Source: an uncultured Gammaproteobacteria bacterium
Lineage (GTDB): Bacteria; Patescibacteriota; Microgenomatia; UBA8517; JACQJR01
Length of the DNA: 64,000 nucleotides
Assembly: GCA_964442455.1 (NCBI GenBank)
Contig: CAYTZB010000001.1
Coordinates: forward strand, 85,910-149,909
Direction of reading: 5' to 3'
Positions within the stretch are counted from its first letter, which is position 1; each line of letters begins with the position of its first letter. Positions 10,734 through 62,684 of the stretch are shown here, piece by piece. The position numbers were made by a program, and so were the translations under genes. The notes below the pieces were generated by a model that saw only the letters and a list, made by a program, of their open reading frames with translations, did not search any database and was not told the origin of the DNA.

Positions 10734-10818
10734 ATGTGTAGGCACCTTCGAGGTGTACGCAGGTATGGTACTATTACCACACTACAGAATATGGCAGTTG
10801 TTTAGTAATCTAATGATT
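10734..10818 (+). repeat. Copy A of a duplicated intergenic module (41-nt identical core 10743-10783, two hairpins, 23-codon micro-ORF)
   Basis: CACCTTCGAGGTGTACGCAGGTATGGTACTATTACCACACT is identical to 11741-11781. TATGG(C/T)AGTTGT and CTAATGAT are also shared downstream. Confidence 0.8.
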
Positions 10819-10842: not shown

Positions 10843-10870
10843 TTGACAAACGGATTACATTTGCTATAGT
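10843..10870 (+). promoter_or_regulatory. Promoter of the 272-aa orphan ORF
   Basis: TTGACA (10843-10848), a 16-nt spacer, then TG-n-TATAGT (10865-10870), followed by TAAGCTAAATTTATG. The architecture matches 11844-11871. Confidence 0.6.
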
Positions 10871-10882
10871 TAAGCTAAATTT

Positions 10883-11701
10883 ATGGCAGCTTCAATTGCT
10901 GAACGATTGGGGGTGACTTTAGAGCGTTTAGGTAAGGGGTTACAAGAAAGAGCAAGACCAAAAGAATCAACTTCTCCGGAACTTCTTCGTGATAAAGCAT
11001 TAGAATTATGGAGATTGACTGCTCCTGGACGCAAAGCTGATCCAAGCACCTCTGCTATTTCTTATTTCGTTTTCTCCTCTTCAGAAGGAGTTACTGCAGA
11101 CACTCAGGAAAAACAACTATTTGATGATTTATTAAAACCATATTGGCATGTCCATGATTATGATGGTTTTATGGTTATACTTTCAGTAAATCCGGATAAA
11201 CTTCCTAGTGTTTCATTTAAACTCTCCATTTTAGCTCCAGCTCCACCACAATTACCCTTTGAAGGTAAGTCTGCTGTTTTAGCATTTAGAGAATTTCCTC
11301 CAGATAGGAGTCGAAGGAGAGACTATCCTTATAATTTGCTTATTCAAGGAGAAAATAGAAATTTTTATTCTGATATATTGGATCAAGAAGTTACCGGTTT
11401 TGATCCTACTCAAGGATTACAATGGCAACAATTAGAAAAATACTCTGTTGATTATCAACCAAGAGGTGATATTGAATGGAGAAAAAAATTCACAAGCGAT
11501 GTTCTTGATCTCTTAATCGATATTATTAAAAAAATAGGATACGATGAAGTTGCTCAGGCTAGGATGGATCAATTTTGGAGGAGAAGTAGCATGATTCGGG
11601 GACGGTGGCTTGGTGAAGTTGAAAGTGAAAATCGGGAAGTAGATTATCGCCGACATTTTAATAATACTTCCTTGTCCCGCCGTAACAGGTTTAGTGTTTA
11701 A
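10883..11701 (+). CDS. Hypothetical protein (orphan, 272 aa)
   Basis: ATG-initiated ORF with its own promoter. A spot-counted 60-nt line (11161-11220) is about 30% G+C. No family recognised. Confidence 0.55.
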   Translation: MAASIAERLGVTLERLGKGLQERARPKESTSPELLRDKALELWRLTAPGRKADPSTSAISYFVFSSSEGVTADTQEKQLFDDLLKPYWHVHDYDGFMVILSVNPDKLPSVSFKLSILAPAPPQLPFEGKSAVLAFREFPPDRSRRRDYPYNLLIQGENRNFYSDILDQEVTGFDPTQGLQWQQLEKYSVDYQPRGDIEWRKKFTSDVLDLLIDIIKKIGYDEVAQARMDQFWRRSSMIRGRWLGEVESENREVDYRRHFNNTSLSRRNRFSV

Positions 11702-11728: not shown

Positions 11729-11816
11729 ATGGTGCAGACACACCTTCGAGGTGTACGCAGGTATGGTACTATTACCACACTCGGTGTATGGTAGTTGTAC
11801 AACGACTCTAATGATA
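11729..11816 (+). repeat. Copy B of the duplicated intergenic module (core 11741-11781, 21-codon micro-ORF preceded by GAGG)
   Basis: Same 41-nt core as copy A and the same downstream conserved blocks. Confidence 0.8.
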
Positions 11817-11843: not shown

Positions 11844-11871
11844 TTGACAATTGAATCCTCTCTGATATAGT
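11844..11871 (+). promoter_or_regulatory. Promoter of the 183-aa orphan ORF
   Basis: TTGACA (11844-11849), a 16-nt spacer, then TG-n-TATAGT (11866-11871), followed by TAAGCTGAATTTAT. Confidence 0.6.
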
Positions 11872-11893
11872 TAAGCTGAATTTATAAGCTATT

Positions 11894-12471: not shown

Positions 12472-13818
12472 ATGGATGTGGTGAAGACGGTATTTGGGAA
12501 GAGTCGTTGGTATGGGCCGATCAGAAACTTCCAACACTTCGTAGAAGCAGTCTTCGCAGTTATTAAAAATGGATATCCTGCGCGAGATTTAACGGTTATT
12601 GGTGTGACAGGAACAGACGGAAAGACAACAACGTCGCACATTATCTCATCAATTCTTCAAGAAGCAGGAATTAAAACTGCGCTTATCTCAAGCGTCGGTG
12701 CATTTATTGGTGATGAGGAGGTCGATACAGGCTTCCATGTAACGACTCCTGATCCAAAATTACTTCAACCACTTCTCGTAAAGATTAAAGAGAAAGGAAT
12801 AACCCATGTTGTTATAGAAGCAACATCTCATGGACTTGACCAACACAGACTTCTTGGATGTAATTTTAAAGTGGGAGTTTTGACAAATATTACTCATGAA
12901 CATTTAGATTACCATCAGACGTTTGAAAGATATAGAGACGCTAAAGTAAAGTTGTTTCGCGGTGTTAAAACTGCTGTTTTAAATAGAGACGATGACTCAT
13001 TTTCCTACATAAAATCAAAAACAAATCCTGGTACTCGTGTCATTGCTTACAGCGTAAAACAAAATGCTACGTTATGGGCAGATAAAGTTTCATTTAATTG
13101 GAAGGGTATGGAATTTCGTGTGAGAGAAGGAAGATCAAGTATTACGCTTACAACAAAACTTATTGGTGAATATAATGTTTCAAATATACTCGCTGCTGTT
13201 GGAGTCGCGCGCGGAATTGGAATTTCATGGGAAGCGATTAAGGAAGGGGTCGAAAGGTTTGGAGGAATTCCAGGAAGGATGGAAAGAGTTGATGAAGGAC
13301 AAACGTTTGCCACCTTTATTGATTTTGCACATACACCAGCGGCTCTTGAGAGCGTATTGACACTTCTTAAGAAATTAAAAACTCGAGATAGTAAACTCAT
13401 CGTTGTATTTGGAGCAGCAGGAGAACGGGATGTTAGCAAGAGGGCTTTGATGGGTGAAATTGCCGCCCGTTTGGCTGATTTTACCGTGTTGACTGCCGAG
13501 GATCCGCGTACCGAGAATCTTAACAGGATTATTGATGATATTACACGGGGGATAAGGCAAAATGCTAAAGTGTGGGATGGTGTTGTGGATTGGAGAAAAG
13601 AAGGAAGCTGGTGTATTCGAGTTCCTGAGCGGGGTGAAGCGATTGCATTTGCCGCTCAAAAGTTGGCGAAAGGTGGGGATATTTTGGTGATTTGCGGAAA
13701 AGGCCATGAGAAATCAATGGCATTTGATCACACCGAATACCCATGGTCAGACCAGGAAGCAGCTAGGGTAGCGCTCAAAGGGAAAATTAAAAGAGTAAAA
13801 AGAGGACAATTAACCTAA
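12472..13818 (+). CDS. murE: UDP-N-acetylmuramoyl-L-alanyl-D-glutamate--2,6-diaminopimelate (or L-lysine) ligase MurE
   Basis: Mur ligase P-loop VIGVTGTDGKTTT, central domain TNITHEHLDYH, and the C-terminal motif DFAHTP. Confidence 0.9.
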   Translation: MDVVKTVFGKSRWYGPIRNFQHFVEAVFAVIKNGYPARDLTVIGVTGTDGKTTTSHIISSILQEAGIKTALISSVGAFIGDEEVDTGFHVTTPDPKLLQPLLVKIKEKGITHVVIEATSHGLDQHRLLGCNFKVGVLTNITHEHLDYHQTFERYRDAKVKLFRGVKTAVLNRDDDSFSYIKSKTNPGTRVIAYSVKQNATLWADKVSFNWKGMEFRVREGRSSITLTTKLIGEYNVSNILAAVGVARGIGISWEAIKEGVERFGGIPGRMERVDEGQTFATFIDFAHTPAALESVLTLLKKLKTRDSKLIVVFGAAGERDVSKRALMGEIAARLADFTVLTAEDPRTENLNRIIDDITRGIRQNAKVWDGVVDWRKEGSWCIRVPERGEAIAFAAQKLAKGGDILVICGKGHEKSMAFDHTEYPWSDQEAARVALKGKIKRVKRGQLT

Positions 13819-13922
13819 TTGACCTAATTATTCTAATTTCTAAAGAATGTCTAATGACAATTTTAAGAATTTCATATTTGGGATTTCTTTAGGTTAATTA
13901 GAAATTAGTAATTAGAAATTTA
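13809..13922. repeat. Imperfect long palindrome built from phased CTAATT / AATTAG units (element E1)
   Basis: Left arm: TAACCTAATTGACCTAATTATTCTAATTTCTAAAGAA. Right arm: TTCTTTAGGTTAATTAGAAATTAGTAATTAGAAATT. It fills the murE-murC spacer and is homologous to 36451-36590. Confidence 0.7.
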
Positions 13923-13929
13923 AGTTTTT

Positions 13930-15354
13930 ATGGATATAAAAACTTTGAAACATATCCATTTCACCGGCATTAAGGGTGTCGGTATGACAGCGCTTGTCTT
14001 ATGTGCACAGGATTTGGGGATAAAGGTAACCGGTTCTGATGTTGCCGAGGTATTTGTGACGGATGAGACACTAGAAAAGCGTGGGATAAGATGGAATGTG
14101 GGATTTGGTGAAAAGAATTTAGACCCGAGGCCTGATTTAGTTATTACCACCGGTGCTCATGGTGGATTACGCAATCCTGAGGTAGTGGCAGCACAAAAAA
14201 TGGGTATCCGAGTGTTAACACACGCCCAGGCGCTGTATGAATTTACGAAGGGGAAAGAAGTTATCGCGGTATGCGGAGTAGGTGGTAAATCAACGACCTG
14301 CGCAATGATTGCAACGATTTTTGATGAAGCAGGACTTCATCCGTCGTTTGCTATAGGCGTGGGGGACATTCCATCACTTGGTGCTCCGGGAAGATACGAT
14401 AAGAAGGGGAACGTGTTTATTGTTGAGGCGGACGAATATGCAATTTCTCCGGGGGTTGATAACCGGCCGCGGTTTAGTCTACTTTCTCCGCGAGTCATTG
14501 TTGTTACTAATATTGAGCATGACCATCCTGACATTTATAAAACTTTAGAGGATACGAAAAGAGCGTTTCGAGAATTTTTTGAAAAATTACCCAGCGATGG
14601 TTTGCTTGTTGCAAATGGAAACAGTGAGAATGTCCGCACGATAACTAAAAATCTCAAAGTAAGAGTTATAATGTACGATATTGAAAATTTAGAACTTTCT
14701 ATTCCTGGTAAGTTTAATCAGGCAAATGCGACTGCAGCTTCTGCAGTTGCAAAATTTTATAACAGCATTCAAGAATACTCCGCAATTTATTGCGGAGATG
14801 AATTGAACGCTGATATGTCATCCTCCTTTAGAGGGAAACCCAGCTCGTTAGAGCGGGGAGGATGTCATAAAATCCCAGAAGAAATAATTAAAAGAGGACT
14901 CCAAAATTTTAAAGGTGTTAGACGTCGGTTTGAAAAAATGGGTGAAATAAATGGAGTATTGTTTTATGATGATTACGCTCATACCCCAAATGAAATAAGG
15001 GCTACACTAGGAGCCGCTCGTGAATGGTTTAATAACCAACGCATAGTTGCAGTTTTTCAACCTCATACCTATTCTCGAACAAAAGCGTTACTTAGCGAAT
15101 TCGCGAAGAGTTTTAGTGATTCGGACATAGTTGGAGTTATGGATATTTATGCTTCCGCTCGGGAGAATGATACTTTAGGTATGTCGGGAGAGCTACTTGC
15201 AAAAGAAATTTCTCGATACCACAAAAATGTTGCCTATACGGGTAATCATGAACGAACTATTGAGTGGATTAAAAAAAATAGTAAAAGCGGTGATATAGTT
15301 TTGACTTTAGGGGCAGGCGATATTTTTTTATTGCACAGGATAATTAATTCATAA
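13930..15354 (+). CDS. murC: UDP-N-acetylmuramate--L-alanine ligase MurC (carries an in-frame ~38-codon repeat-element insertion)
   Basis: HFTGIKGVGMTAL, GVGGKSTT, NIEHDHPD, FKGVRRRFE and YDDYAHTP motifs are present. The segment NSIQEYSAIYCGDELNADMSSSFRGKPSSLERGGCHK is encoded by the repeat at 14757-14870. Confidence 0.9.
   Translation: MDIKTLKHIHFTGIKGVGMTALVLCAQDLGIKVTGSDVAEVFVTDETLEKRGIRWNVGFGEKNLDPRPDLVITTGAHGGLRNPEVVAAQKMGIRVLTHAQALYEFTKGKEVIAVCGVGGKSTTCAMIATIFDEAGLHPSFAIGVGDIPSLGAPGRYDKKGNVFIVEADEYAISPGVDNRPRFSLLSPRVIVVTNIEHDHPDIYKTLEDTKRAFREFFEKLPSDGLLVANGNSENVRTITKNLKVRVIMYDIENLELSIPGKFNQANATAASAVAKFYNSIQEYSAIYCGDELNADMSSSFRGKPSSLERGGCHKIPEEIIKRGLQNFKGVRRRFEKMGEINGVLFYDDYAHTPNEIRATLGAAREWFNNQRIVAVFQPHTYSRTKALLSEFAKSFSDSDIVGVMDIYASARENDTLGMSGELLAKEISRYHKNVAYTGNHERTIEWIKKNSKSGDIVLTLGAGDIFLLHRIINS
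14757..14870 (+). mobile_element. MITE-like hairpin element, long form, copy 1 (inside murC, in frame)
   Basis: 114 bp, homologous to 58021-58133 and to 25471-25538. Termini TTATAACA...TGTCATAA form inverted repeats. There are two internal 8-bp hairpins. Confidence 0.7.
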
Positions 15355-21087: not shown

Positions 21088-22455
21088 ATGGATTTTTCAA
21101 ACAAAAATGTCGCCATCATTGGGGCAGGTTTAGAGGGTAAAGATGTCCTGCGATTTTTGAGTAAGAAGGGCGCAAAAATTACGGTTTTTGATCAAAAAGA
21201 AAAAGAAGAACTGGACTTATCTGACGTAGAAAAAATTCCCGCTCAATTTATAACCGGCCCTGGCTATCTTGATAGAGGACTACGCAACTTCGACTATATT
21301 GTTCGTTCTCCAGGAGTAAGACCTGATTTACCCCAAATAGTAGATGCGGAAAAGGGTGGTACAGAAATAACAAGCGCCATCAACATATTCTTTTCTTTTA
21401 GTCCTGCTTCTGCTATTGGTGTGACCGGAACAAAAGGAAAGGGGACAACGGCAACGCTCGTGGCAAAGTGTCTAGAATCAAACCTGCCTGCGCAGACAGG
21501 TGGCAAGACCGTGTACTTGGCTGGTAATATTGGAACTCCTTATCTTGAACTTTTAGAAAAATTAAAATCTAGCGATACTGTTGTTCTTGAACTTTCTTCT
21601 TTTCAACTCCTCGATATTAAAAAATCTCCTCATATTGCAGTGGTATTAAACATTACGACCGATCACCTTGATTGGCACAAAGACAGAGAGGAGTACGTCC
21701 GAGCAAAAGAGAATATTGTGAGGTTTCAAACGCAAAAAGATTACGCGGTGTTAATCAAAGATTACGAAACGCCTGCCAGTTTTGCTCAAAAAACAAAAGC
21801 TCAAGTTTGCTGGGCGAGTGCAAAAGAGCAGGTGAGGGGAGTGTATGTATTGCATGGAAAAATTGTCGTGAATATTGATAAGAAAGAAGAGGTAGGTTCT
21901 GTAGATAAACTGTTGCTTCGGGGGCGACATAATTGGGAAAATGTGACAGCGGCTGCATGTGCTTCGTACTTGGCTGGGGCAACAGTGGAAGGGATAAGAA
22001 AAGGAGTCTTTTCATTTAAAGGACTCCCCCATCGTCTGGAGTTGGTTGGAACCTATAATGGAATTACTTTCTATAACGACTCGTTTGCTACAAGTCCTGC
22101 TCCAGTTTTAGCAGCTGTTGCCAGCTTTACCGAGCCGGTAATTTTAATTTTGGGTGGCTCAAGTAAAGGGCTCTCATACGACGAATTTGGGAAAGAATTG
22201 GCGAATAAAAAACAAGTAAAAGCGGTTCTTATTATTGGAGAAGTAGGCCCAGAAATACAAAAAGCGCTGGAGGTTGGTGGATTTACTGGAAAAATAGTGG
22301 TCGGTGGAAAGAATATGGTTGAGATTGTACAGAATGCGATTACCCTTGCCCAGACTGGTGACGTGGTACTCCTCTCCCCAGCTGCTGCGTCGTTTGATAT
22401 GTTCCGAGATTACAAAGACAGAGGGGAACAGTTTAAGGAAGTCGTAACCCAATAA
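21088..22455 (+). CDS. murD: UDP-N-acetylmuramoylalanine--D-glutamate ligase MurD
   Basis: N-terminal Rossmann NVAIIGAGLEGK, P-loop GVTGTKGKGTT, and NITTDHLDWH. ATG 21088 is preferred over the ORF-track start 21025. Confidence 0.9.
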   Translation: MDFSNKNVAIIGAGLEGKDVLRFLSKKGAKITVFDQKEKEELDLSDVEKIPAQFITGPGYLDRGLRNFDYIVRSPGVRPDLPQIVDAEKGGTEITSAINIFFSFSPASAIGVTGTKGKGTTATLVAKCLESNLPAQTGGKTVYLAGNIGTPYLELLEKLKSSDTVVLELSSFQLLDIKKSPHIAVVLNITTDHLDWHKDREEYVRAKENIVRFQTQKDYAVLIKDYETPASFAQKTKAQVCWASAKEQVRGVYVLHGKIVVNIDKKEEVGSVDKLLLRGRHNWENVTAAACASYLAGATVEGIRKGVFSFKGLPHRLELVGTYNGITFYNDSFATSPAPVLAAVASFTEPVILILGGSSKGLSYDEFGKELANKKQVKAVLIIGEVGPEIQKALEVGGFTGKIVVGGKNMVEIVQNAITLAQTGDVVLLSPAAASFDMFRDYKDRGEQFKEVVTQ

Positions 22456-25470: not shown

Positions 25471-25538
25471 TTATAACAGCATTCAAGAAAACTCCCGACT
25501 TTTAGTCGGGTGATGAATTGAACGCTGATATGTCATAA
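25471..25538 (+). mobile_element. MITE-like hairpin element, short form, copy 2 (abuts the ftsA start codon)
   Basis: 68 bp, TTATAACAGC...GATATGTCATAA. It equals the long form minus the segment between two ATGTCAT direct repeats. Confidence 0.7.
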
Positions 25539-25541
25539 GTT

Positions 25542-26810
25542 ATGGCTAAAGGAAAAGTTATTGCCGGAATAGATATTGGTTCTTCCAAAGTTGCGACCGT
25601 CATAGGCAGTGCAAATCCAGAGGAAGAAGTACTACAAGTTTTGGGAGTGGCGTCTGTTCCTGCTCCGCCTGATGGAATTAAGAAGGGGCAAATTGTTGAT
25701 ATTGAGAAAGCCTCTGGGGCGGTTGTAGCTTCGGTTGAGAAAGCAGAACGGATGGCGGGGTTTGCACTCGATAACGTCGTCGTTGTTATTAATGGTGGAC
25801 ATATTCAGGGTCAAAACTCTCATGGGGTTGTTGCAATATCCTCCCCGGAGGGAGAGATAGAAGGAAGTGATGTTGAGCGGGTCATTGATGCCGCGCGTGC
25901 GATATCTCTTCCAGCTGGTCGCGAAGTTATTCATGTGCTCCCTTGTGAGTTTATTGTAGATGGGGAGAAAGGGATAAAGGATCCGGTGGGAATGAGTGGG
26001 GTGCGGCTTGAGGTAGAAGCGCATATTGTAACCGCGTCAACAACTGCCATTCGCAATTTAACCAAGTGTGTAAGTGAGGTGGGAGCGAGAATTTCCGGTG
26101 TGGTGTTCTCGGGGTTTGCCGCCGCCGCATCGGTGCTTTCTGATACCGAACGGGAACTAGGAGTCGTGTTAATTGACCTTGGAGCGGGGACGACCTCAAT
26201 TGCCGTTTTCACCGATGGCGCACTGGTTCACTCGCGAGTGCTTCCTATTGGTTCAAAAAATATTACCAATGATTTAGCTATAGGACTGCGCACCTCGCTT
26301 GAGAGTGCTGAGAAGATTAAAATTTCTCTCTCCGCAGCAAGTAAAAAAGACAAAGAGGAAGACGAGATAGACGTGTCGGGGTTGGGTGTTGATGGAGGGG
26401 AACGGACTGTGTCAAAAAGGACCCTTTCAGAGGGGATTATACGGCCTAGACTCAACGAAATTTGGAGTATGGTAGGGATGGAGCTCAAGGCCACGGGTCT
26501 TGGAGGGAGAACCCCGGCAGGAGTGGTGATTACCGGAGGGGGAGCGTTAACGGTAGGAGCGGTTGAGTCAGCACGGCGAATCTTAGCCCTTCCTGTTCGG
26601 GTGGGAATTCCCACCGGTATTTCGGGATTGGTTGACGATGTCTCAACGCCCGCATTTGCCGCAACGGTTGGGGCGGTTGCGTGGGCAGCACAAAACGTTG
26701 CCCCTCCTTCGGGTTTTCGTATTGGTCAGTTCACCCGTCCCTTCGAAAGCCTCCCTGTAAAAGGAGTGGTAGGCAAGGTGGTTGAGGTTATAAAAGGATT
26801 GCTGCCATAA
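25542..26810 (+). CDS. ftsA: Cell division protein FtsA
   Basis: Actin-like ATPase motifs GIDIGSSKV and LIDLGAGTTSIAVF, with the characteristic C-terminal region. Confidence 0.9.
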   Translation: MAKGKVIAGIDIGSSKVATVIGSANPEEEVLQVLGVASVPAPPDGIKKGQIVDIEKASGAVVASVEKAERMAGFALDNVVVVINGGHIQGQNSHGVVAISSPEGEIEGSDVERVIDAARAISLPAGREVIHVLPCEFIVDGEKGIKDPVGMSGVRLEVEAHIVTASTTAIRNLTKCVSEVGARISGVVFSGFAAAASVLSDTERELGVVLIDLGAGTTSIAVFTDGALVHSRVLPIGSKNITNDLAIGLRTSLESAEKIKISLSAASKKDKEEDEIDVSGLGVDGGERTVSKRTLSEGIIRPRLNEIWSMVGMELKATGLGGRTPAGVVITGGGALTVGAVESARRILALPVRVGIPTGISGLVDDVSTPAFAATVGAVAWAAQNVAPPSGFRIGQFTRPFESLPVKGVVGKVVEVIKGLLP

Positions 26811-36436: not shown

Positions 36437-36450
36437 AGGCCACAAGTGAA

Positions 36451-36590
36451 ATTAACCTAATTAACCTAATTGCTCTAATTGATCTAAATTTTGAAGATTT
36501 GTAGTTTAAAAATTGGGATTTATTTAGAAATTAGAATAATTAGAAATAAGCAGAGCTTGTTTCTCGCAAGCTCGAAATTAGAAATTTTTA
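36451..36590. repeat. Imperfect long palindrome of CTAATT / AATTAG phased units (element E4, homolog of E1) plus an internal 7-bp hairpin
   Basis: Left arm: ATTAACCTAATTAACCTAATTGCTCTAATTGATCTAAATT. Right arm: TTTAGAAATTAGAATAATTAGAAAT...GAAATTAGAAATT. The hairpin is GAGCTTG-TTTCTCG-CAAGCTC. Confidence 0.65.
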
Positions 36591-36592
36591 AA

Positions 36593-37720
36593 ATGGCTCT
36601 TGTTAAACCAGATACCACGCGGTTGGCAAAAATTCGAGTAATTGGGGTTGGTGGCGGTGGGGGGAACGCAATTAACTCCATGATCTCCCAAGATAAGATT
36701 TCCGGAGTTGAGTTCATTGCCGTTAATACAGATGCACAAGTCCTTCTCTCAAACCTCGCGTCCACAAAAGTTCAAGTTGGTGAAAAATTGACGCGCGGGT
36801 TGGGTGTTGGGGGAAATCATGAGCTTGGGAAACAAGCAGCGGAGGAATCAAGAGAAAAAATTAAAGAACTGCTTCTTGACTCTGATATGGTATTTATTAC
36901 TGCAGGTATGGGTGGAGGGACTGGAACTGGGGCTGCACCGATTATTGCCGAGGTCGCGCGTGAGGTGGGGGCGTTGACGATTGCTATTGTTACCAAACCT
37001 TTTGCCTTTGAAGGTGCACGGCGCGCAGTAGTAGGAGAAGAGGGAATTGAAGCGCTTAAAGGAAAGGTTGATACGCTCATTATCATTCCCAATCAGCGGT
37101 TGATGGATGTCATTGACCGGAAGGTGACGCTACTTGATGCGTTCCGCCTGGCCGACTCGGTGCTCTCGCAAGGTGTACAAGGAATTTCTGAAATTATCAC
37201 CCAACCGGGACTTATTAACGTTGACTTTGCGGATGTAAAAGCAATTATGACCCAAGCAGGCTCAGCGCTTCTTGGCATTGGTACGGGAGTTGGTGAAGCG
37301 CGGGCACAAATGGCAGCACGGGCAGCAATTTCCTCTCCTCTTCTTGACTTATCAATCGAGGGTGCAAAGGGAGTGTTGTTTAATATCTCGGGTGGCCCGG
37401 ACTTGACTATGGCGGAGGTTGATGAGGCAGCGCGAATTATCGCCGAGCATTCCGATGCAGACGCAAACATTATTTTTGGTGCATCAATTGACCAACGGTT
37501 GTCCGATCAAGTACGTATTACAGTTATTGCGACCGGTTTTGATGAGGCGCGGGCACGACTTGCGCAAATAACCCAAACCGCAGTCAAACCTCAACCAACC
37601 CTTGAGTCGACAGAAGAGACTCGTGGGGAAAACGAGGAGGAAGAAAAGGCAGAAGAACCCAAGGATGATGAGTTTGGAGAACGCTTCGAAATACCAGCGT
37701 TTCTAAGACAGGGCCGCTAG
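36593..37720 (+). CDS. ftsZ: Cell division GTPase FtsZ
   Basis: GVGGGGGNAIN, tubulin signature GGGTGTGAAPIIA, NTDAQ, and the C-terminal conserved peptide FEIPAFLRQGR. ATG 36593 is preferred; the ORF-track TTG 36491 extension runs through the palindromic repeat. Confidence 0.92.
   Translation: MALVKPDTTRLAKIRVIGVGGGGGNAINSMISQDKISGVEFIAVNTDAQVLLSNLASTKVQVGEKLTRGLGVGGNHELGKQAAEESREKIKELLLDSDMVFITAGMGGGTGTGAAPIIAEVAREVGALTIAIVTKPFAFEGARRAVVGEEGIEALKGKVDTLIIIPNQRLMDVIDRKVTLLDAFRLADSVLSQGVQGISEIITQPGLINVDFADVKAIMTQAGSALLGIGTGVGEARAQMAARAAISSPLLDLSIEGAKGVLFNISGGPDLTMAEVDEAARIIAEHSDADANIIFGASIDQRLSDQVRITVIATGFDEARARLAQITQTAVKPQPTLESTEETRGENEEEEKAEEPKDDEFGERFEIPAFLRQGR
37669..37707 (+). repeat. Direct repeat copy 1 (last 39 nt of the ftsZ body before its final 13 nt)
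   Basis: TGAGTTTGGAGAACGCTTCGAAATACCAGCGTTTCTAAG is identical to 40512-40550. Confidence 0.9.
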
Positions 37721-37781: not shown

Positions 37782-40514
37782 ATGATTGCAACAACCGAAA
37801 GAGCTATACCAATAGGATTGACTGGCGATATCTCAAAGGATGGAATTCTTTCTCCAGGAACACAAATAGAGCTTGATCGTCTCCAAACTAATGCGGCTGA
37901 TGCTTGCATGGAATATCTAGATAGAATGGCACCAGATGCACCATTTCCTCTAGTTTTTATGGCAACTGGCGTCGGTAAGGGAAAAATTATTCACGAACTG
38001 ATTAAAAGGCAAAAAGCTCGAAAACAAGACTCGAAGATTTTGTTAGTTACAGGTACAAAAATTGTTTTAGTTGATCAGACTGATCAAGCTTTAACTGCTT
38101 ATCAGCAAGAACAAAATGATTTTGATATGGATGAGGATCTTGAACTGGACCAGATGGATTTTGAAAAAGAAGCGTTTGGAGAATACACATTTGATAAGTA
38201 TGGTAATCCGGATGTGGATGTTCAACTGGCAACAATTCAAAGAATTCAAAGGCAGCATAAAGAGGGGAAACTTAATGCGAATGATTTCGATCTACTAATA
38301 GTAGATGAAGTACATAATGTAGGAACCCAGAATAGGTTTAATGCAATTGATAACTTTCAAAGGGTTGTTGGTTTTACTGCTACTCCATATCGCTACACTG
38401 GCCCAATGAAAACACCACAAAGTTATGGATTTGAAATAATTACTTCGCTGTCCCTTCCCGAAGCACAAGAAAGGAAAATTCTTCCGCCTCTTTATGCACT
38501 GCAGATTAATACATCAGAATTACTAAAAGACGAACAAATACCTACCACGAGAACTGGAAAGATCGATTATTCGAAACTCGAGAAAGTTCTCAAGGCACAT
38601 CCGGAATTAAGGGAATTCATTGCGAATAGAGTTGCACCAATTATCAATTTTGAAGGGAGAAGTTATAAAACTGTTGTAACTGTTAACTTTGTGTGGGAAG
38701 CCCTGGAACTTGCCTGGTTATTTAGGGATAAAGGAATTAAGGTTGGTTTAGCAGTTAATCAATATGCCGCAAAGAATATTGATACCAAAGAAATACCAGC
38801 ATTGGACACGATTAGGAGATATAAACTGCCGGAAGGCGATCCAGAAAGCCTCCAGGTTTTAATTTCTCCTTATGTTATTTCGGAAGGTTTTGATGCTCCG
38901 GCAACAGAGATTTTAGTTTGGGCGTCTCCAACTGATTCATATCTGCGATACACGCAATATACTGGACGGCTGGCCAGAAGACATTTTGGTAAAGCTTATG
39001 GACTAGTTGTTGATTGTTTATACCAAACAAGCCAGTATGGTTGGACCTACAACTTTGCAATGTGGATGAAGGGATATGTACAAGAGTTAGAACCTGGACT
39101 TTTATATCTTGGCCCGATGTCAGAAATCAAAGATGTTGAAGTACTTAGACGCATACACGAGATTTCGGATAATATCCATATTCGTGAATTACAAAGGGAA
39201 GGAATACTACCTATTCAAGAAAACGACTTGCCGCTTTCACAAAATTGGATTCGACCTCTTTTCCAGGGAGATTGGCTTAGATTAACTTCTTTAATCGATG
39301 AGATTAAAGAAGAGTATAGAATCACTGGTGAGGAGGTATTTAATCAACTATTCACAACCAGGCTTAGTGGTAATCAACTTGTGCTCGTATGTACAAATAG
39401 AGATATTTTTATTCAACGGCTAATAGACAAAGGTGCTAAACCAAAGGTTGAAAAACCACGAGAGGGAGAGATTCCTTTGACTCAGATTAATCTACCCAAA
39501 CTCTTTGTTGGTAATTTTGAAGATACTTTGAGACCTATGCTTAATTCAATAATGGCGCGTATTAAAAATGAAGATCCAGAGGAATACCAGCGACTCTTTG
39601 CCAAACGAATGCAGGGTAGGGAAATCTATGTTTGCACAAATAAGGATAGACTTATTCAACTTATGGTTGAAGCTGGCGCAAAACTCAGGCCAGGGACTAA
39701 GGTAGCAAAAGAGAAAATGCAAACTAGCGATTTTGCTCTTACAGCAGATAATCTCGGAGAAACTTTTATTACTGGAAGAACAAAGAAGATAAGAGAAGTA
39801 ATAAGGAAAATAAAAGAAAGTTTGCCAGAAGGGGACTCTTTATTTACTTTTAGAGAATACAAGTATGCCGATGTTGAGGTAGTAACTGATTTCGATAGAT
39901 TTGTGCAATTAATGCTACAAACTGGAGTCAAACTCAGACCAAAAAATTTTATTCCAATTCAACCAAATGATATACAATTAAGTAGGGATTTATTAAAAAC
40001 ATTTTTAGGGCAATGGCGTGAAATTTCTACAACAGCGCAGCGAGCTAAAGAAAGACTTGAAAGACAATTCCCCGATGACTGTGATACTCTTTTTGTAGTT
40101 AGGACAACGAGAGTCCAAAATAAACCTCTTTGGATTGATGTATGTACAGACAGGTCTAAATTTATAAAAGCAATGGTAGAGGAAGGAGCTCGATTGAGAG
40201 ATCAGGCAGATATTAACCTTCTACCTATTCAAGAAAATGATATTGTTTTGAGCTTTGAATCTTTCTATTCGATTTCTACTACAAACTGGAGTAAATTAAA
40301 AGTTGTAATTAGACGAATTAAAGATAGGATAAAAGAGGAAATGCCAGAGGAATTCGAAAAGTTATTTGTAAAAAGGAAAAACCGTCGGGGGAAAAGTGAG
40401 GTCTGTACAGATAGAGGTTTATTTATTAAGTGGCTTGAAGAAGAGGGTGTTAAGCTAAGGCAAATTCCGCTAGTTGTGCGACATAGAAGTAGTAACTCTA
40501 ATCGTAACTCTTGA
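37782..40514 (+). CDS. SF2 helicase (ResIII/DEAD-like N-terminal ATPase + helicase-C) with five tandem ~84-aa C-terminal repeats
   Basis: Motif I FMATGVGKGK, motif II LLIVDEVHNV, motif III GFTATP, motif VI QYTGRLARR. TGgTATACT lies 6 nt before ATG 37782. The repeats span nt ~39204-40465. Confidence 0.85.
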   Translation: MIATTERAIPIGLTGDISKDGILSPGTQIELDRLQTNAADACMEYLDRMAPDAPFPLVFMATGVGKGKIIHELIKRQKARKQDSKILLVTGTKIVLVDQTDQALTAYQQEQNDFDMDEDLELDQMDFEKEAFGEYTFDKYGNPDVDVQLATIQRIQRQHKEGKLNANDFDLLIVDEVHNVGTQNRFNAIDNFQRVVGFTATPYRYTGPMKTPQSYGFEIITSLSLPEAQERKILPPLYALQINTSELLKDEQIPTTRTGKIDYSKLEKVLKAHPELREFIANRVAPIINFEGRSYKTVVTVNFVWEALELAWLFRDKGIKVGLAVNQYAAKNIDTKEIPALDTIRRYKLPEGDPESLQVLISPYVISEGFDAPATEILVWASPTDSYLRYTQYTGRLARRHFGKAYGLVVDCLYQTSQYGWTYNFAMWMKGYVQELEPGLLYLGPMSEIKDVEVLRRIHEISDNIHIRELQREGILPIQENDLPLSQNWIRPLFQGDWLRLTSLIDEIKEEYRITGEEVFNQLFTTRLSGNQLVLVCTNRDIFIQRLIDKGAKPKVEKPREGEIPLTQINLPKLFVGNFEDTLRPMLNSIMARIKNEDPEEYQRLFAKRMQGREIYVCTNKDRLIQLMVEAGAKLRPGTKVAKEKMQTSDFALTADNLGETFITGRTKKIREVIRKIKESLPEGDSLFTFREYKYADVEVVTDFDRFVQLMLQTGVKLRPKNFIPIQPNDIQLSRDLLKTFLGQWREISTTAQRAKERLERQFPDDCDTLFVVRTTRVQNKPLWIDVCTDRSKFIKAMVEEGARLRDQADINLLPIQENDIVLSFESFYSISTTNWSKLKVVIRRIKDRIKEEMPEEFEKLFVKRKNRRGKSEVCTDRGLFIKWLEEEGVKLRQIPLVVRHRSSNSNRNS

Positions 40515-40563
40515 GTTTGGAGAACGCTTCGAAATACCAGCGTTTCTAAGGCAAGGAAGATGA
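40512..40563 (+). pseudogene. Orphan duplicate of the ftsZ 3' end (encodes EFGERFEIPAFLRQGR-stop)
   Basis: 39 nt are identical to 37669-37707. The next 13 nt differ from the ftsZ tail at 7 positions, yet both tails translate to RQGR-stop. It is not in frame with the helicase ORF. Confidence 0.8.
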
Positions 40564-58020: not shown

Positions 58021-58133
58021 TTATAACAGCATTCAAGAAAACTCCCGACTTTCAGTCGGGAGATGAATTGAACGCTGATATGTCATCCTCCTTTAGAGGA
58101 AACCCCGCTTTTCAAAGCGGGGAGGATGTCATA
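58021..58133 (+). mobile_element. MITE-like hairpin element, long form, copy 3 (intergenic)
   Basis: TTATAACAGC...GGATGTCATA, with hairpins CTCCCGAC-TTTCA-GTCGGGAG and CCCCGCTT-TTCA-AAGCGGGG. Confidence 0.75.
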
Positions 58134-58149
58134 GTATAATTCTTTTGAC

Positions 58150-58239
58150 ATGAAATTTGCGGTTGGGAGCGATGAGAAGACTAAGATAACGGACTTTGTG
58201 GTCGATTATCTTAAAACACGTACAAAAACTCTATATTGA
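58150..58239 (+). pseudogene. Possible N-terminal remnant of an RpiB/LacAB-family sugar-phosphate isomerase (29 codons, then stop)
   Basis: MKFAVGSDEKTKITDFVVDYLKTR resembles the RpiB N-terminus (MK.A.GSDh.g..lk..i..yL). It is truncated by TGA at 58237-58239, where the next promoter begins. Confidence 0.35.
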
Positions 58240-58286
58240 CGTTTATTAAAAACTAATTTCATAATAAAAGATAGAAAGGGGGTAAG

Positions 58287-62593: not shown

Positions 62594-62684
62594 TATGTGA
62601 CTTTTCACCTCCTTCCTTGATATAGGCAGGCCTGCCTGCGCAGACAGGAGTTTGTGAGCAGTCAATAAAAGTTTAGCTGTTCTG

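What the first reader, a model, noticed from the sequence alone, without database searches (positions are those of the whole stretch)
14757..14870. MITE-like palindromic element inserted in-frame inside the essential murC gene (analogous to Rickettsia palindromic elements)
114 bp within murC are homologous to two intergenic elements (58021-58133 and 25471-25538). They share the termini TTATAACAGCATTCAAGAA...GATGAATTGAACGCTGATATGTCAT...GGAGGATGTCATAA, with 7/8-matching terminal inverted repeats (TTATAACA / TTATGACA).

The insert adds about 38 residues (NSIQEYSAIYCGDELNADMSSSFRGKPSSLERGGCHK). They fall between the conserved ...NATAASAVAKF helix and IPEEIIKRGLQNFKGVRRRFE, where other MurC proteins have only a short turn.

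Read in the same phase, the intergenic copy hits TGA after hairpin 1. The murC copy has a hairpin-1 loop 1 nt shorter and 1 extra nt in the hairpin-2 region. It therefore stays open and totals a multiple of three, which is what selection for an intact murC would produce. In-frame palindromic repeat insertions are established for Rickettsia RPEs. I know of no description for this kind of organism or for a Mur ligase, and I cannot search.
Basis: partly seen in the sequence, partly recalled or inferred. Interest (0 to 1): 0.75.

Follow-up and report, generated by a model that had tools for sequence, protein, structure and literature searches.

The report
Mobile hairpin element translated inside murC
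A 108-base mobile DNA element has landed inside the essential cell-wall gene murC of an ultra-small (CPR) bacterium without breaking it, and it belongs to a large, apparently undescribed family that lives inside many genes by being exactly a whole number of codons long.

Summary
murC (13930-15354) carries a repeat that also occurs at 58 kb and, in a short form, at 25.5 kb.

The closest ortholog (87% identical) has an empty site, and the net insertion is exactly 108 nt, or 36 codons (N278-H313). AlphaFold2 models the insert as a disordered loop between the central and C-terminal domains. All invariant MurC residues are kept.

The element is not a TIR/TSD MITE. The supposed left repeat, TTAT, is pre-existing target sequence, so the element is 14761-14868. 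Its layout matches IS200/IS605 (IS608-type) ends fused into a PATE:
- TTAT lies in the flank and TCAT is the last 4 nt.
- Covarying hairpins sit 17 nt and 10 nt from the two cleavage points.
- The guide tetranucleotides AAAA and GAAA are those predicted by the IS608 code.
- There is no duplication at the one site testable, and 34 of 43 copies share one strand orientation relative to GC skew.

The family spans at least 20 Microgenomates MAGs. It is 3n-long in 42 of 63 copies and sits in-frame in many proteins, including ArgRS, Pth and a P-type ATPase. It resembles the archaeal HgcC RNA below threshold.

No transposase was found, so mobilization is inferred. I judge it a new member of known kinds (PATE; RPE-like in-frame insertion).

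The parts
13930..15354 (+). murC (UDP-N-acetylmuramate--L-alanine ligase), 474 aa, host gene of the insertion
   Evidence: Pfam Mur_ligase N/M/C domains. Best PDB match is MurC 9ir5, E=2e-64. All 44 invariant columns of a 98-sequence alignment are retained. It lies in a dcw cluster syntenic with L001.
14757..14760 (+). TTAT: target / transposon-adjacent motif (left cleavage site). This is host sequence (end of codon F276 plus Y277), not part of the element.
   Evidence: Flank positions -4..-1 are T44 T43 A46 T46 of 46, with no conservation beyond -5; TTAT in 59 of 63 copies. The ortholog L001 has TTGT at the homologous position, so these 4 nt pre-exist.
14761..14868 (+). The inserted element: 108 nt = 36 codons, encoding N278-H313 of MurC
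   Evidence: Empty site in L001 is GCAAAATTTTGT|AAAATTCC. Filled site is GCAAAATTTTAT[108 nt]AAAATCCC. nhmmer gives 106.6 bits to the family profile.
14774..14777 (+). Left guide tetranucleotide (AATA here; family consensus AAAA), immediately 5' of the left hairpin foot
   Evidence: AANA in 40 of 44 copies and AAAA in 29. This matches the IS608 rule TTAC:AAAG -> TTAT:AAAA.
14778..14797 (+). Left subterminal hairpin P1 (IPL-like), CTCCGCAAT-TT-ATTGCGGAG; its foot is 17 nt from the left cleavage point
   Evidence: 7 pairs each carry 10-16 double compensatory changes across 34 copies. The distance is 17 nt in 40 of 44 copies.
14798..14834 (+). Conserved linker ATGAATTGAACGCTGATATGTCATCC... It pairs back to both ends (outer stems) and contains the small CUCC/GAGG hairpin. 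It encodes DELNADMSSSF.
   Evidence: These are invariant columns in alignment A5. The outer stems appear in every fold.
14835..14838 (+). Right guide tetranucleotide GAAA, 5' of the right hairpin foot
   Evidence: GNNA in 26 of 30 copies and GAAA in 19. This matches the IS608 rule TCAA:GAAT -> TCAT:GAAA.
14839..14858 (+). Right subterminal hairpin PB (IPR-like), CCCAGCTC-GTTA-GAGCGGGG (one A.G mismatch in this copy)
   Evidence: The 3' foot lies exactly 10 nt from the element end in 28 of 37 long copies. The stem sequence varies between copies but stays complementary.
14865..14868 (+). TCAT: transposon-encoded motif / right cleavage site, the last 4 nt of the element
   Evidence: Invariant ...TCAT end in the copies. 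It lies in the 10-nt tail after the right hairpin, as in IS608.
58025..58132 (+). Intergenic full-length copy (108 nt), preceded by TTAT at 58021-58024; P1 at 58042-58062, PB at 58103-58122
   Evidence: Best nhmmer hit, 114 bits. Sub-threshold Rfam HgcC match at 58041-58145, 36 bits, E=4.6e-7.
25475..25536 (+). Short (62 nt) copy: left module plus ATATGTCAT, lacking the right hairpin; preceded by TTAT at 25471-25474; ends 6 nt before the ftsA-like ATG
   Evidence: 62.4 bits, profile positions 1-66. It looks like a deletion between the two ATGTCAT direct repeats, like the 'terminal-only' PATEs described in PMC3119063.

Best explanation
The 108 nt at 14761-14868 are a non-autonomous mobile element of the IS200/IS605 type. 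It is a PATE: the fused left and right ends of such an insertion sequence, with no gene of its own.

Inferred mechanism. A Y1 (HUH) TnpA transposase encoded elsewhere recognises the two subterminal hairpins by their shape. It finds its cleavage sites by base-pairing between 4-nt internal guides (AAAA, GAAA) and TTAT (flank) and TCAT (element end). It excises the top strand as a single-stranded circle and pastes it 3' of a TTAT on single-stranded DNA at a replication fork, without duplicating the target.

Shown directly. In an ancestor of this genome the element landed after TTT-TAT (F276-Y277) of murC. The copy was of a subfamily that is 36 codons long and stop-free in that phase, so the gene stayed open. 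MurC now carries a 36-residue disordered loop in the linker between its central and C-terminal domains, with every invariant catalytic residue intact.

Also shown: the family's architecture, target motif, orientation bias, whole-codon lengths and its presence inside many other proteins. Inferred: the identity of the enzyme, the single-strand mechanism, and that the insert is translated rather than removed.
For: Insertion:
- The ortholog at 87% identity has an empty site, and the net gain is +108 nt with no duplication needed.
- The AF2 model has pLDDT 91.7 overall. Only residues 283-312 fall below 50, between helices 261-279 and 317-326.
- All invariant MurC residues are kept.

Mobility:
- 43 exact-core loci in at least 20 MAGs, with several copies per genome.
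- Copies occur in intergenic regions, next to tRNA genes and inside unrelated genes.
- Some copies carry small insertions inside the element, and one copy sits directly after the TCAT of another.

IS200/IS605 architecture:
- TTAT flank in 59 of 63 copies and an invariant TCAT end.
- No TIR once the ends are redefined.
- Left hairpin foot 17 nt from the cleavage point in 40 of 44 copies, against 19 nt in IS608. Right hairpin foot exactly 10 nt from the end in 28 of 37, against 10 nt in IS608.
- Guides AAAA (29; AANA in 40 of 44) and GAAA (19; GNNA in 26 of 30), as predicted from IS608 TTAC:AAAG and TCAA:GAAT.
- Hairpin stems covary heavily, which fits structure-based recognition (PMC3201880).
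- G.U pairs outnumber A.C pairs 14 to 4 on the top strand.
- The top strand lies on the G-rich strand in 34 of 43 copies, p=1.7e-4.
- TTAT and TTTAT are documented TAMs of IS200/IS605 elements.
- Consistent 28-36 bit matches to Rfam HgcC, which has been linked to IS605 right ends and PATEs.
- The short 62-nt form resembles repeat-mediated 'terminal-only' PATEs.

Translation:
- Lengths are 3n in 42 of 63 copies (p=7e-8) and in 23 of 37 after dereplication (p=3e-4).
- 14 of 15 genic copies are 3n.
- 121 protein-cluster representatives carry the translated element. Pfam on 20 of the longer ones identifies GT-C/PMT glycosyltransferases, O-antigen ligases, a methyltransferase, peptidyl-tRNA hydrolase and others.
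Against: - No TnpA, TnpB or full-length parent IS with these ends was found. This covers 477 kb of held DNA and a metagenome scan designed to exclude the short form.
- Only one empty/filled site pair could be compared. It requires the ancestor to have had TAT where the relative has TGT, and a 2-4 nt AT/ATAA duplication cannot be formally excluded.
- The orientation bias is confounded with gene orientation.
- The cleavage sites lie within or next to the conserved outer stems, which IS608 lacks.
- The hairpin sequences differ between copies within a single genome. That is unusual if one TnpA serves them all.
- The HgcC match is below Rfam's gathering score.
Confidence: 0.7

Rival explanations
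1. A classical MITE: a deletion derivative of a DDE-transposase insertion sequence. It would be recognised through terminal inverted repeats (TTATAACA / TTATGACA) and would insert with a short AT-rich target duplication (TA, TAA or ATAA).
For: A 7/8 inverted match exists if TTAT and the trailing AA are counted as element. At the murC site a 2-4 nt direct repeat (AT...AT, or ATAA...ATAA if the ancestor had TAT) is formally possible. The base after the element is A in 31 of 46 copies.
Against: - TTAT must pre-exist in murC. A 112- or 114-nt element would not restore the frame of the ortholog.
- The left flank is fixed (TTAT in 59 of 63) while the right flank is only weakly biased. This is an asymmetric target, not a duplication.
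- The true ends share 2 of 8 positions.
- Copies show strand-orientation bias.
- The guide tetranucleotides and the 17/10-nt hairpin spacing fit IS608 in detail.
- The internal blocks are as conserved as the ends, unlike MITEs.
Confidence: 0.12
2. Primarily a host-functional or nuclease-guide structured RNA gene, i.e. an HgcC-like ncRNA or TnpB omega-RNA scaffold. On this view conservation reflects RNA function, and the murC copy is an accidental by-product. This is not exclusive of the best explanation.
For: The frame sequence is conserved exactly across different Microgenomates lineages while the stems covary. G.U pairs outnumber A.C pairs on one strand. HgcC matches extend about 13 nt beyond the element end, as an omega-RNA guide would. 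PATEs often encode omega-RNAs (PMC10055086). A PATE-derived RNA affected growth in Halobacterium (PMC4615843). Several copies abut tRNA genes or gene starts.
Against: There is no transcription data. Copies lie in both orientations relative to genes and inside ORFs of unrelated proteins. The element is absent from orthologous sites in a close relative. No TnpB was found nearby. Single-stranded DNA hairpins explain the covariation and strand asymmetry equally well.
Confidence: 0.1
3. The insert is not part of the MurC protein. It would be removed from the mRNA (intron-like or ribozyme-mediated) or skipped by the ribosome (programmed bypassing).
For: The segment forms a very stable structure (-49.7 kcal/mol, z=-8.3) that a ribosome must unwind. 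Patescibacteria are known for unusual introns (PMC13011429, listed).
Against: No intron or ribozyme family matches even at a permissive threshold. At 108 nt it is far below group I/II intron size. The whole-codon length bias and stop-free frames of genic copies (14 of 15 are 3n) are expected only if the element is translated. The same peptide frame recurs in many host proteins.
Confidence: 0.03
4. An assembly artefact: a repeat-induced chimera in a metagenome-assembled genome.
For: The source is a MAG and the element is repeated in the genome. No reads were available, and the exact protein is a single-member cluster.
Against: Both flanks continue the same murC ORF in frame and align with orthologs across the junctions. 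The murC copy differs in sequence from the other two window copies. The same kind of in-frame insertion is seen in independent assemblies and genes.
Confidence: 0.01

Closest known systems
PATEs (palindrome-associated transposable elements): non-autonomous IS200/IS605-family elements made of fused left and right ends (Haloquadratum, PMC3119063; Geobacillus, PMC10055086), with IS608 as the mechanistic paradigm (PMC3201880, PMC5934647)
   Same: - No coding capacity, no TIR, no target duplication at the one testable site.
- A fixed 4-nt motif in the 5' flank (TTAT; compare TTAC for IS608, TTAT for ISDge10, TTTAT for ISGst2).
- A subterminal hairpin at each end.
- Guide tetranucleotides 5' of each hairpin foot that obey the IS608 pairing rule.
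- The right cleavage site 10 nt after the hairpin.
- Orientation bias toward one replication strand.
- Short 'terminal-only' derivatives.
   Different: - No cognate TnpA or parent IS has been identified.
- It is very small (108 nt), with extra conserved outer stems that pair the linker to both ends.
- Hairpin sequences are highly variable, even within one genome.
- Lengths are quantised in codons.
- It is frequently found in-frame inside protein-coding genes, including essential ones.
- The hosts are CPR bacteria.
Rickettsia palindromic elements (RPE) and other in-frame small mobile repeats, e.g. Coxiella QMITE2 (PMC5896051). The RPE comparison rests on my own knowledge of Ogata et al. 2000.
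   Same: A short palindromic repeat is inserted in-frame in many unrelated protein genes of a reduced genome. It adds a peptide segment at a tolerated surface position without destroying function.
   Different: Sequence similarity to RPEs was not tested, and the host phylum is different. Here the transposition chemistry can be inferred (IS200/IS605-like), whereas RPE mobilisation is unknown. Copies are equally common in intergenic DNA.
Rfam HgcC family RNA (RF00062), a high-GC ncRNA of AT-rich hyperthermophilic archaea whose function is unresolved
   Same: The order of elements is the same: hairpin - GAUGA..UGAAC - small hairpin - 8-bp hairpin with a UUNA loop - AGGAnGUCA. Full-length model matches occur on the element's top strand in 5 copies. 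The HgcC consensus also fits the guide/cleavage rule (GAAC before the hairpin, UCAG 10 nt after it).
   Different: Scores are 28-36 bits against a gathering score of 50. HgcC has a 37-nt central segment where this element has 11 nt. The hosts are archaea, not CPR bacteria. The HgcC model lacks the first 17 nt of this element.

Membership tests
IS200/IS605-derived PATE | Too short to encode a transposase; multi-copy and at non-orthologous sites | tested here: met
   62-153 nt. 43 loci in at least 20 MAGs plus 20 metagenome loci. Absent from the orthologous murC site, and no copy is seen upstream of ftsA in the relative L001, though that intergenic region is too diverged to define edges.
IS200/IS605-derived PATE | No terminal inverted repeats | tested here: met
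   With the ends defined by flank conservation (AACAGCAT... / ...GATGTCAT), only 2 of 8 terminal positions are complementary. The 7/8 match depends on counting the TTAT flank.
IS200/IS605-derived PATE | No target-site duplication; scarless relation between empty and filled site | tested here: inconclusive
   One pair only. L001 has ...TTTTGT|AAAAT and the window has ...TTTTAT[108]AAAAT. This fits zero duplication if the ancestor had TAT, but a 2-4 nt AT/ATAA repeat cannot be excluded.
IS200/IS605-derived PATE | Fixed 4-6 nt targeting motif abutting the left end only | tested here: met
   TTAT in 59 of 63 copies. Positions beyond -5 are unconserved and the right flank is only weakly A-biased.
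IS200/IS605-derived PATE | Subterminal hairpins at both ends, recognised as structure | tested here: met
   P1 has 7 pairs with 10-16 double compensatory changes each. PB has an 8-9 bp stem of varying sequence. Fold z is about -8. Recognition by a protein was not tested.
IS200/IS605-derived PATE | Guide tetranucleotide 5' of each hairpin foot complementary to the cleavage sites (IS608 rule), with IS608-like spacing | tested here: met
   GL is AAAA/AANA in 40 of 44 copies, 17 nt from the TTAT cleavage point. GR is GAAA/GNNA in 26 of 30, with the hairpin ending 10 nt before the TCAT end in 28 of 37. The rule and spacings come from PMC3201880 and PMC5934647.
IS200/IS605-derived PATE | Top strand preferentially on the lagging-strand template | tested here: met
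   The top strand is on the G-rich strand in 34 of 43 copies (p=1.7e-4), and in 25 of 31 where |skew| is at least 0.05. All 3 window copies follow this. It is confounded with gene orientation.
IS200/IS605-derived PATE | A Y1 TnpA (or RAYT) in the same genomes, and a full-length IS with the same ends | tested here: not met
   None in 477 kb of held DNA by motif scan, neighbour clustering or tblastn. The metagenome scan for left ends not followed by the fused junction gave only short variants. Whole host genomes could not be searched, so this reflects lack of data rather than demonstrated absence.
MITE in the strict sense (DDE-transposase derived) | Terminal inverted repeats matching a transposase-encoding IS, plus target-site duplication | tested here: not met
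   See the rows above. The apparent TIR includes host sequence, the flanks are asymmetric, and no related IS was found.
Rfam HgcC (RF00062) | Covariance-model score at or above the gathering threshold (50 bits) | tested here: not met
   36.0, 33.7, 32.7, 29.3 and 27.9 bits. All are full-length matches on the same strand as the element.
Rickettsia palindromic elements | Sequence membership in an RPE family | not tested
   No RPE sequences or models were available in the tools. Only the behaviour (in-frame insertion in many proteins) is shared.
MurC (UDP-N-acetylmuramate--L-alanine ligase) | Three Mur-ligase domains, conserved catalytic residues, dcw-cluster context | tested here: met
   Pfam PF01225, PF08245 and PF02875. 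PDB MurC match at E=2e-64. All invariant columns are present. The gene lies between a Mur ligase gene and murB.

The most novel reading that the evidence does not exclude
This would be a previously unrecognised, phylum-spanning lineage of IS200/IS605-type mini-elements that has become 'codon-compatible', meaning quantised to 105/108/111 nt and stop-free in one frame. That would let it persist inside genes of gene-dense, reduced CPR genomes. It could leave those genes scarlessly, giving reversible loop polymorphisms in essential proteins. On this reading it is the bacterial counterpart of the archaeal HgcC RNAs, which would explain that orphan RNA family as PATE/omega-RNA-type transcripts.
Probability: 0.35. 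Interest if true: 0.75.

Novelty: new member of a known kind. Interest (0 to 1): 0.6.

Why it matters
- It shows that an essential peptidoglycan enzyme of a CPR bacterium tolerates, and probably expresses, a 36-residue transposon-encoded loop. The same element sits inside tRNA synthetase, peptidyl-tRNA hydrolase, transporters and many envelope glycosyltransferases across Microgenomates. Selfish DNA is therefore a real source of protein-length variation in these minimal genomes.
- It gives a concrete, testable mechanism (TTAT/TCAT cleavage sites with AAAA/GAAA guides) for a family with no known enzyme.
- It flags dozens of database 'hypothetical proteins' as spurious ORFs called on the element.
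- It offers a lead on what the long-orphan HgcC RNA family is.

Tried and rejected
- Rfam at gathering threshold found only tRNAs.
- Hammerhead, twister and other ribozyme or intron readings were considered. No family matches, and the core motifs do not fit.
- A TA-duplication (mariner-like) model was rejected because the implied empty site would be 2 nt short and out of frame.
- The ftsA-upstream site in the relative was too diverged to define insertion edges.
- The word-indexed protein search with the peptide profile returned only 22-81 aa ORFs and missed the window's own MurC, so it was not usable as a census of host proteins. An earlier attempt failed because the query was under 40 aa.
- The exact 20-mer is absent from viral contigs.
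- Neighbour-gene clustering showed no protein family recurring beside copies.
- The metagenome scan designed to find a full-length parent IS gave only linker variants, one solo left module (L053) and nested or tandem copies.
- Regex and tblastn searches for TnpA/TnpB in 477 kb were negative. The TnpA query was written from memory.
- Stop-freeness of the element on its own is not clearly beyond expectation, because about two thirds of hairpin lengths would connect two open phases. I do not use it as evidence; only the 3n length bias is used.
- The alignment to solved MurC did not localise the insert cleanly, because this clade lacks another segment present in those structures. The ortholog alignment and AF2 model were used instead.
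- A 2025 paper on archaeal omega-RNAs does not mention HgcC.
Full report
**Observation.**
The window holds three copies of one repeat, all on the + strand. One lies inside an ORF at 13930-15354, one is intergenic at 58 kb, and one is a short form at 25.5 kb. The two exact shared blocks of 19 and 25 nt each occur three times, whereas shuffled sequence gives essentially none. A profile search finds no further copies in the window.

The ORF is MurC. It has all three Mur-ligase Pfam domains, and its best solved-structure match is MurC at E=2e-64. It sits in a dcw cluster. The organism is a Microgenomates-class CPR bacterium, judging by its homologs.

**The insertion is real and precisely defined.**
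None of 23 aligned orthologs has a homologous segment. The closest, P0002 (87% identity over the aligned part), reads VAKF-C-KIPEE where the window reads VAKF-Y[NSIQ...GGCH]KIPEE. Its contig L001 is syntenic from mraZ to ftsA.

At the DNA level the empty site is GCAAAATTTTGT|AAAATTCC, and the filled site is GCAAAATTTTAT[108 nt]AAAATCCC. The net gain is exactly 36 codons (N278-H313).

An AlphaFold2 model built from 98 sequences is confident overall (pLDDT 91.7, pTM 0.90) except at residues 283-312, where pLDDT is below 50. That stretch lies between the last helix of the central domain (261-279) and the first helix of the C-terminal domain (317-326). All invariant MurC columns are retained.

Mis-assembly is very unlikely. 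Both flanks continue the same gene in frame, and the murC copy differs in sequence from the other two window copies.

**The element belongs to a large family.**
A 20-nt core occurs exactly in 43 places in at least 20 different Microgenomates-class MAGs, among them Woesebacteria, Microgenomatus, Shapirobacteria and Blackburnbacteria. Several genomes carry several copies. A differently designed scan found 20 more copies in metagenomes.

All copies share a fixed frame: TTAT|AACAGCATTCAAGAAAAC-[hairpin P1]-ATGAATTGAACGCTGATATGTCATCCTC-[small hairpin, hairpin PB]-AGGATGTCAT|. The two inner hairpins differ freely between copies but stay complementary. P1 has 7 pairs, each with 10-16 double compensatory changes among 34 copies.

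Non-Watson-Crick pairs are mostly G.U (14) rather than A.C (4) on this strand, so the fold is selected on the top strand.

**What kind of element it is.**
The four bases before the element are T, T, A, T in 44, 43, 46 and 46 of 46 copies, with no conservation further out. The right flank is only weakly A-biased, and the element always ends in TCAT. Over 63 copies the flank is TTAT in 59.

In murC these four bases are host codons, and the relative has TTGT at that position. So TTAT is a target motif, not part of the element. With the true ends there is no TIR, and the one empty site needs no duplication.

That combination defines IS200/IS605-family elements and their gene-less derivatives, the PATEs: no TIR, near-terminal palindromes, no duplication, and a 4-6 bp targeting oligonucleotide at the 5' end (PMC3119063).

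I then tested the detailed IS608 architecture taken from the literature (PMC3201880 and PMC5934647):
- The left cleavage site TTAC lies in the flank, 19 nt 5' of the left hairpin foot.
- The right cleavage site TCAA lies inside the element, 10 nt 3' of the right hairpin foot.
- Each site is read by a 4-nt guide just 5' of the hairpin foot (AAAG and GAAT).
- The transposase reads hairpin shape rather than sequence.

The pairing rule (site position 2 with guide position 1, site position 4 with guide position 4) predicts guide AAAA for TTAT and guide GAAA for TCAT. The measurements fit:
- The P1 foot is 17 nt from the left cleavage point in 40 of 44 copies, and the preceding 4 nt are AANA in 40 of 44 (AAAA in 29).
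- PB ends exactly 10 nt before the element end in 28 of 37 long copies, and the 4 nt before it are GNNA in 26 of 30 (GAAA in 19).

TTAT and TTTAT are documented transposon-adjacent motifs of IS200/IS605 elements: ISDge10 (PMC12908284) and ISGst2 (PMC10055086).

The top strand lies on the G-rich strand in 34 of 43 copies (p=1.7e-4), and all three window copies follow this. By established knowledge of strand skew, the G-rich strand is the lagging-strand template, which is the preferred target of single-strand transposition. This bias is confounded with gene orientation.

The 62-nt copy at 25.5 kb looks like a deletion between the two ATGTCAT repeats. That parallels the 'terminal-only' PATEs.

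**The HgcC link.**
No Rfam family reaches its threshold. At a permissive threshold, the intergenic copy matches HgcC (RF00062) over the whole model on the element's strand, at 36 bits against a gathering score of 50 and E=4.6e-7 on 241 nt. Four other copies give 28-34 bits.

HgcC is an archaeal ncRNA family of unresolved function (PMC5732400). It was previously noted to contain a motif typical of IS605 right ends and PATEs (PMC4615843).

In the consensus printed, the 8-bp hairpin is preceded by GGAAC and followed by AGGAGGUCAG. That corresponds to a guide GAAC and a site TCAG 10 nt after the hairpin foot, which again obeys the rule. This is a resemblance and not membership.

**In-frame residence is a family habit.**
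Among the public loci, copies lie inside long ORFs of the following proteins:
- a P-type ATPase (L035);
- GT39-like membrane proteins (L002, L043);
- an arginyl-tRNA synthetase (L020);
- a UvrD-like helicase, in antisense orientation (L034);
- others.

The usual reading is ITAFKK...DELNADMSSSF...GEDVI.

An exhaustive profile search of 1.84 billion cluster representatives found 121 proteins carrying the translated element. About 35 of these are at least 150 aa. This is a lower bound, because MurC itself is represented by an insert-free relative.

Pfam on 20 of the longer ones identified GT-C/PMT glycosyltransferases, O-antigen ligases, a methyltransferase, a KH-domain protein, an Asp/Glu racemase, a GT2 and peptidyl-tRNA hydrolase. 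The many short hits are spurious ORFs called on intergenic copies.

Element lengths are quantised in codons. Of 63 copies, 42 are 3n long (p=7e-8), as are 23 of 37 after dereplication at 90% (p=3e-4). The bias also holds for intergenic copies alone (28 of 48, p=3e-4), and 14 of 15 genic copies are 3n.

The murC copy belongs to a subfamily with a hairpin 1 nt shorter and a linker 1 nt longer. That subfamily is still 108 nt but is read in a different phase at both ends (YNSIQE...GGCH). The same architecture occurs in intergenic copies elsewhere. Selection in murC therefore acted as a filter on which variant could survive there. It did not create the indels.

**What is missing.**
I found no transposase. 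Motif scans, neighbour clustering and a tblastn with an IS608 TnpA query written from memory were all negative on 477 kb of held DNA.

A metagenome scan for left ends not followed by the fused junction returned only linker variants, a solo left module and nested or tandem copies. There were no hits on viral contigs.

Whole host genomes could not be searched with the tools available. The enzyme and the single-strand mechanism are therefore inferred from architecture, at about 0.7 confidence. Only one empty/filled pair was available to test for duplication. Translation of the insert is inferred from the codon-length bias and the open frames, not observed.

**Comparison and novelty.**
The behaviour matches Rickettsia palindromic elements (my own knowledge) and the in-frame Coxiella QMITE2 cases (PMC5896051). 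The architecture matches PATEs of the IS200/IS605 family.

Full-text searches found no description of such elements in Microgenomates, Patescibacteria or CPR bacteria, or inside a Mur ligase.

I classify it as a new member of known kinds, with two unusual features: codon-quantised length and the HgcC resemblance.

Noticed in passing
window 25475-25545: The short 62-nt copy ends only 6 nt before the ftsA-like start codon (TCAT|AAGTT ATG). It therefore occupies the place where a ribosome-binding site would normally be. The relative L001 has unrelated sequence there.
   Followed up: partly
window 58133-58245: Directly after the 58 kb copy comes AGTATAAT (a -10-like box). It is followed by a short ORF, MKFAVGSDEKTKITDFVVDYLKTRTKTLY*, that looks like the N-terminus of a ribose-5-phosphate isomerase B and stops after 30 codons. 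It may be a gene remnant.
   Followed up: no
window 10743-10783 and 11741-11781; 10843-10884 and 11844-11885: There is a perfect 41-nt direct repeat about 1 kb apart. Each copy is followed 100 nt later by a TTGACA...TATAGT promoter-like repeat (76% identical). This suggests a tandemly duplicated small unit.
   Followed up: no
window 21482-21501, 42713-42732, 62630-62649: A 20-nt GC-rich palindrome, ACCTGCCTGCGCAGACAGGT, occurs three times. It may be a second small repeat family or a shared terminator.
   Followed up: no
window 13808-13846 and 36450-36497: AATTAACCTAATT(G/A)ACCTAATT-type short tandem-like repeats occur just upstream of murC and again at 36.4 kb.
   Followed up: no
window 37669-37713 and 40512-40556: A 45-nt direct repeat, 96% identical, with copies 2.8 kb apart.
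   Followed up: no
alignment A2, columns 270-310 and the insert column: MurC of this clade (the window and P0002-P0013) lacks a segment of about 30-40 aa that other Microgenomates MurC proteins have in the central domain. P0002, P0030 and others are murC-murB fusions. P0075 carries an unrelated insert of about 17 aa at the same inter-domain loop, so this loop tolerates insertions generally.
   Followed up: partly
L042:29-164, L062 (tandem), L049, L061, L039, L032: Some copies carry other small insertions. L042 has about 28 nt in the P1 loop, flanked by TTAC...TTAC. L049, L039 and L032 have insertions in the right module, and L061 has one in the linker. In L062 a second, internally deleted copy sits directly after the TCAT end of the first, as if TCAT served as the target.
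   Followed up: partly
L008, L009, L013, L016, L033, L060: Several copies lie within about 10-20 nt of tRNA genes (tRNAs in L008 confirmed). It is unclear whether this reflects TTAT-rich spacers or a preference.
   Followed up: no
proteins P0121-P0167: Dozens of 22-81 aa 'hypothetical proteins' in public databases are simply ORFs called across intergenic copies of this element.
   Followed up: partly
Rfam HgcC consensus as printed: The HgcC consensus itself fits the IS608 guide/cleavage rule: GAAC lies 5' of the 8-bp hairpin and UCAG lies 10 nt 3' of it. This suggests that HgcC RNAs are transcripts of IS200/IS605-type ends.
   Followed up: partly
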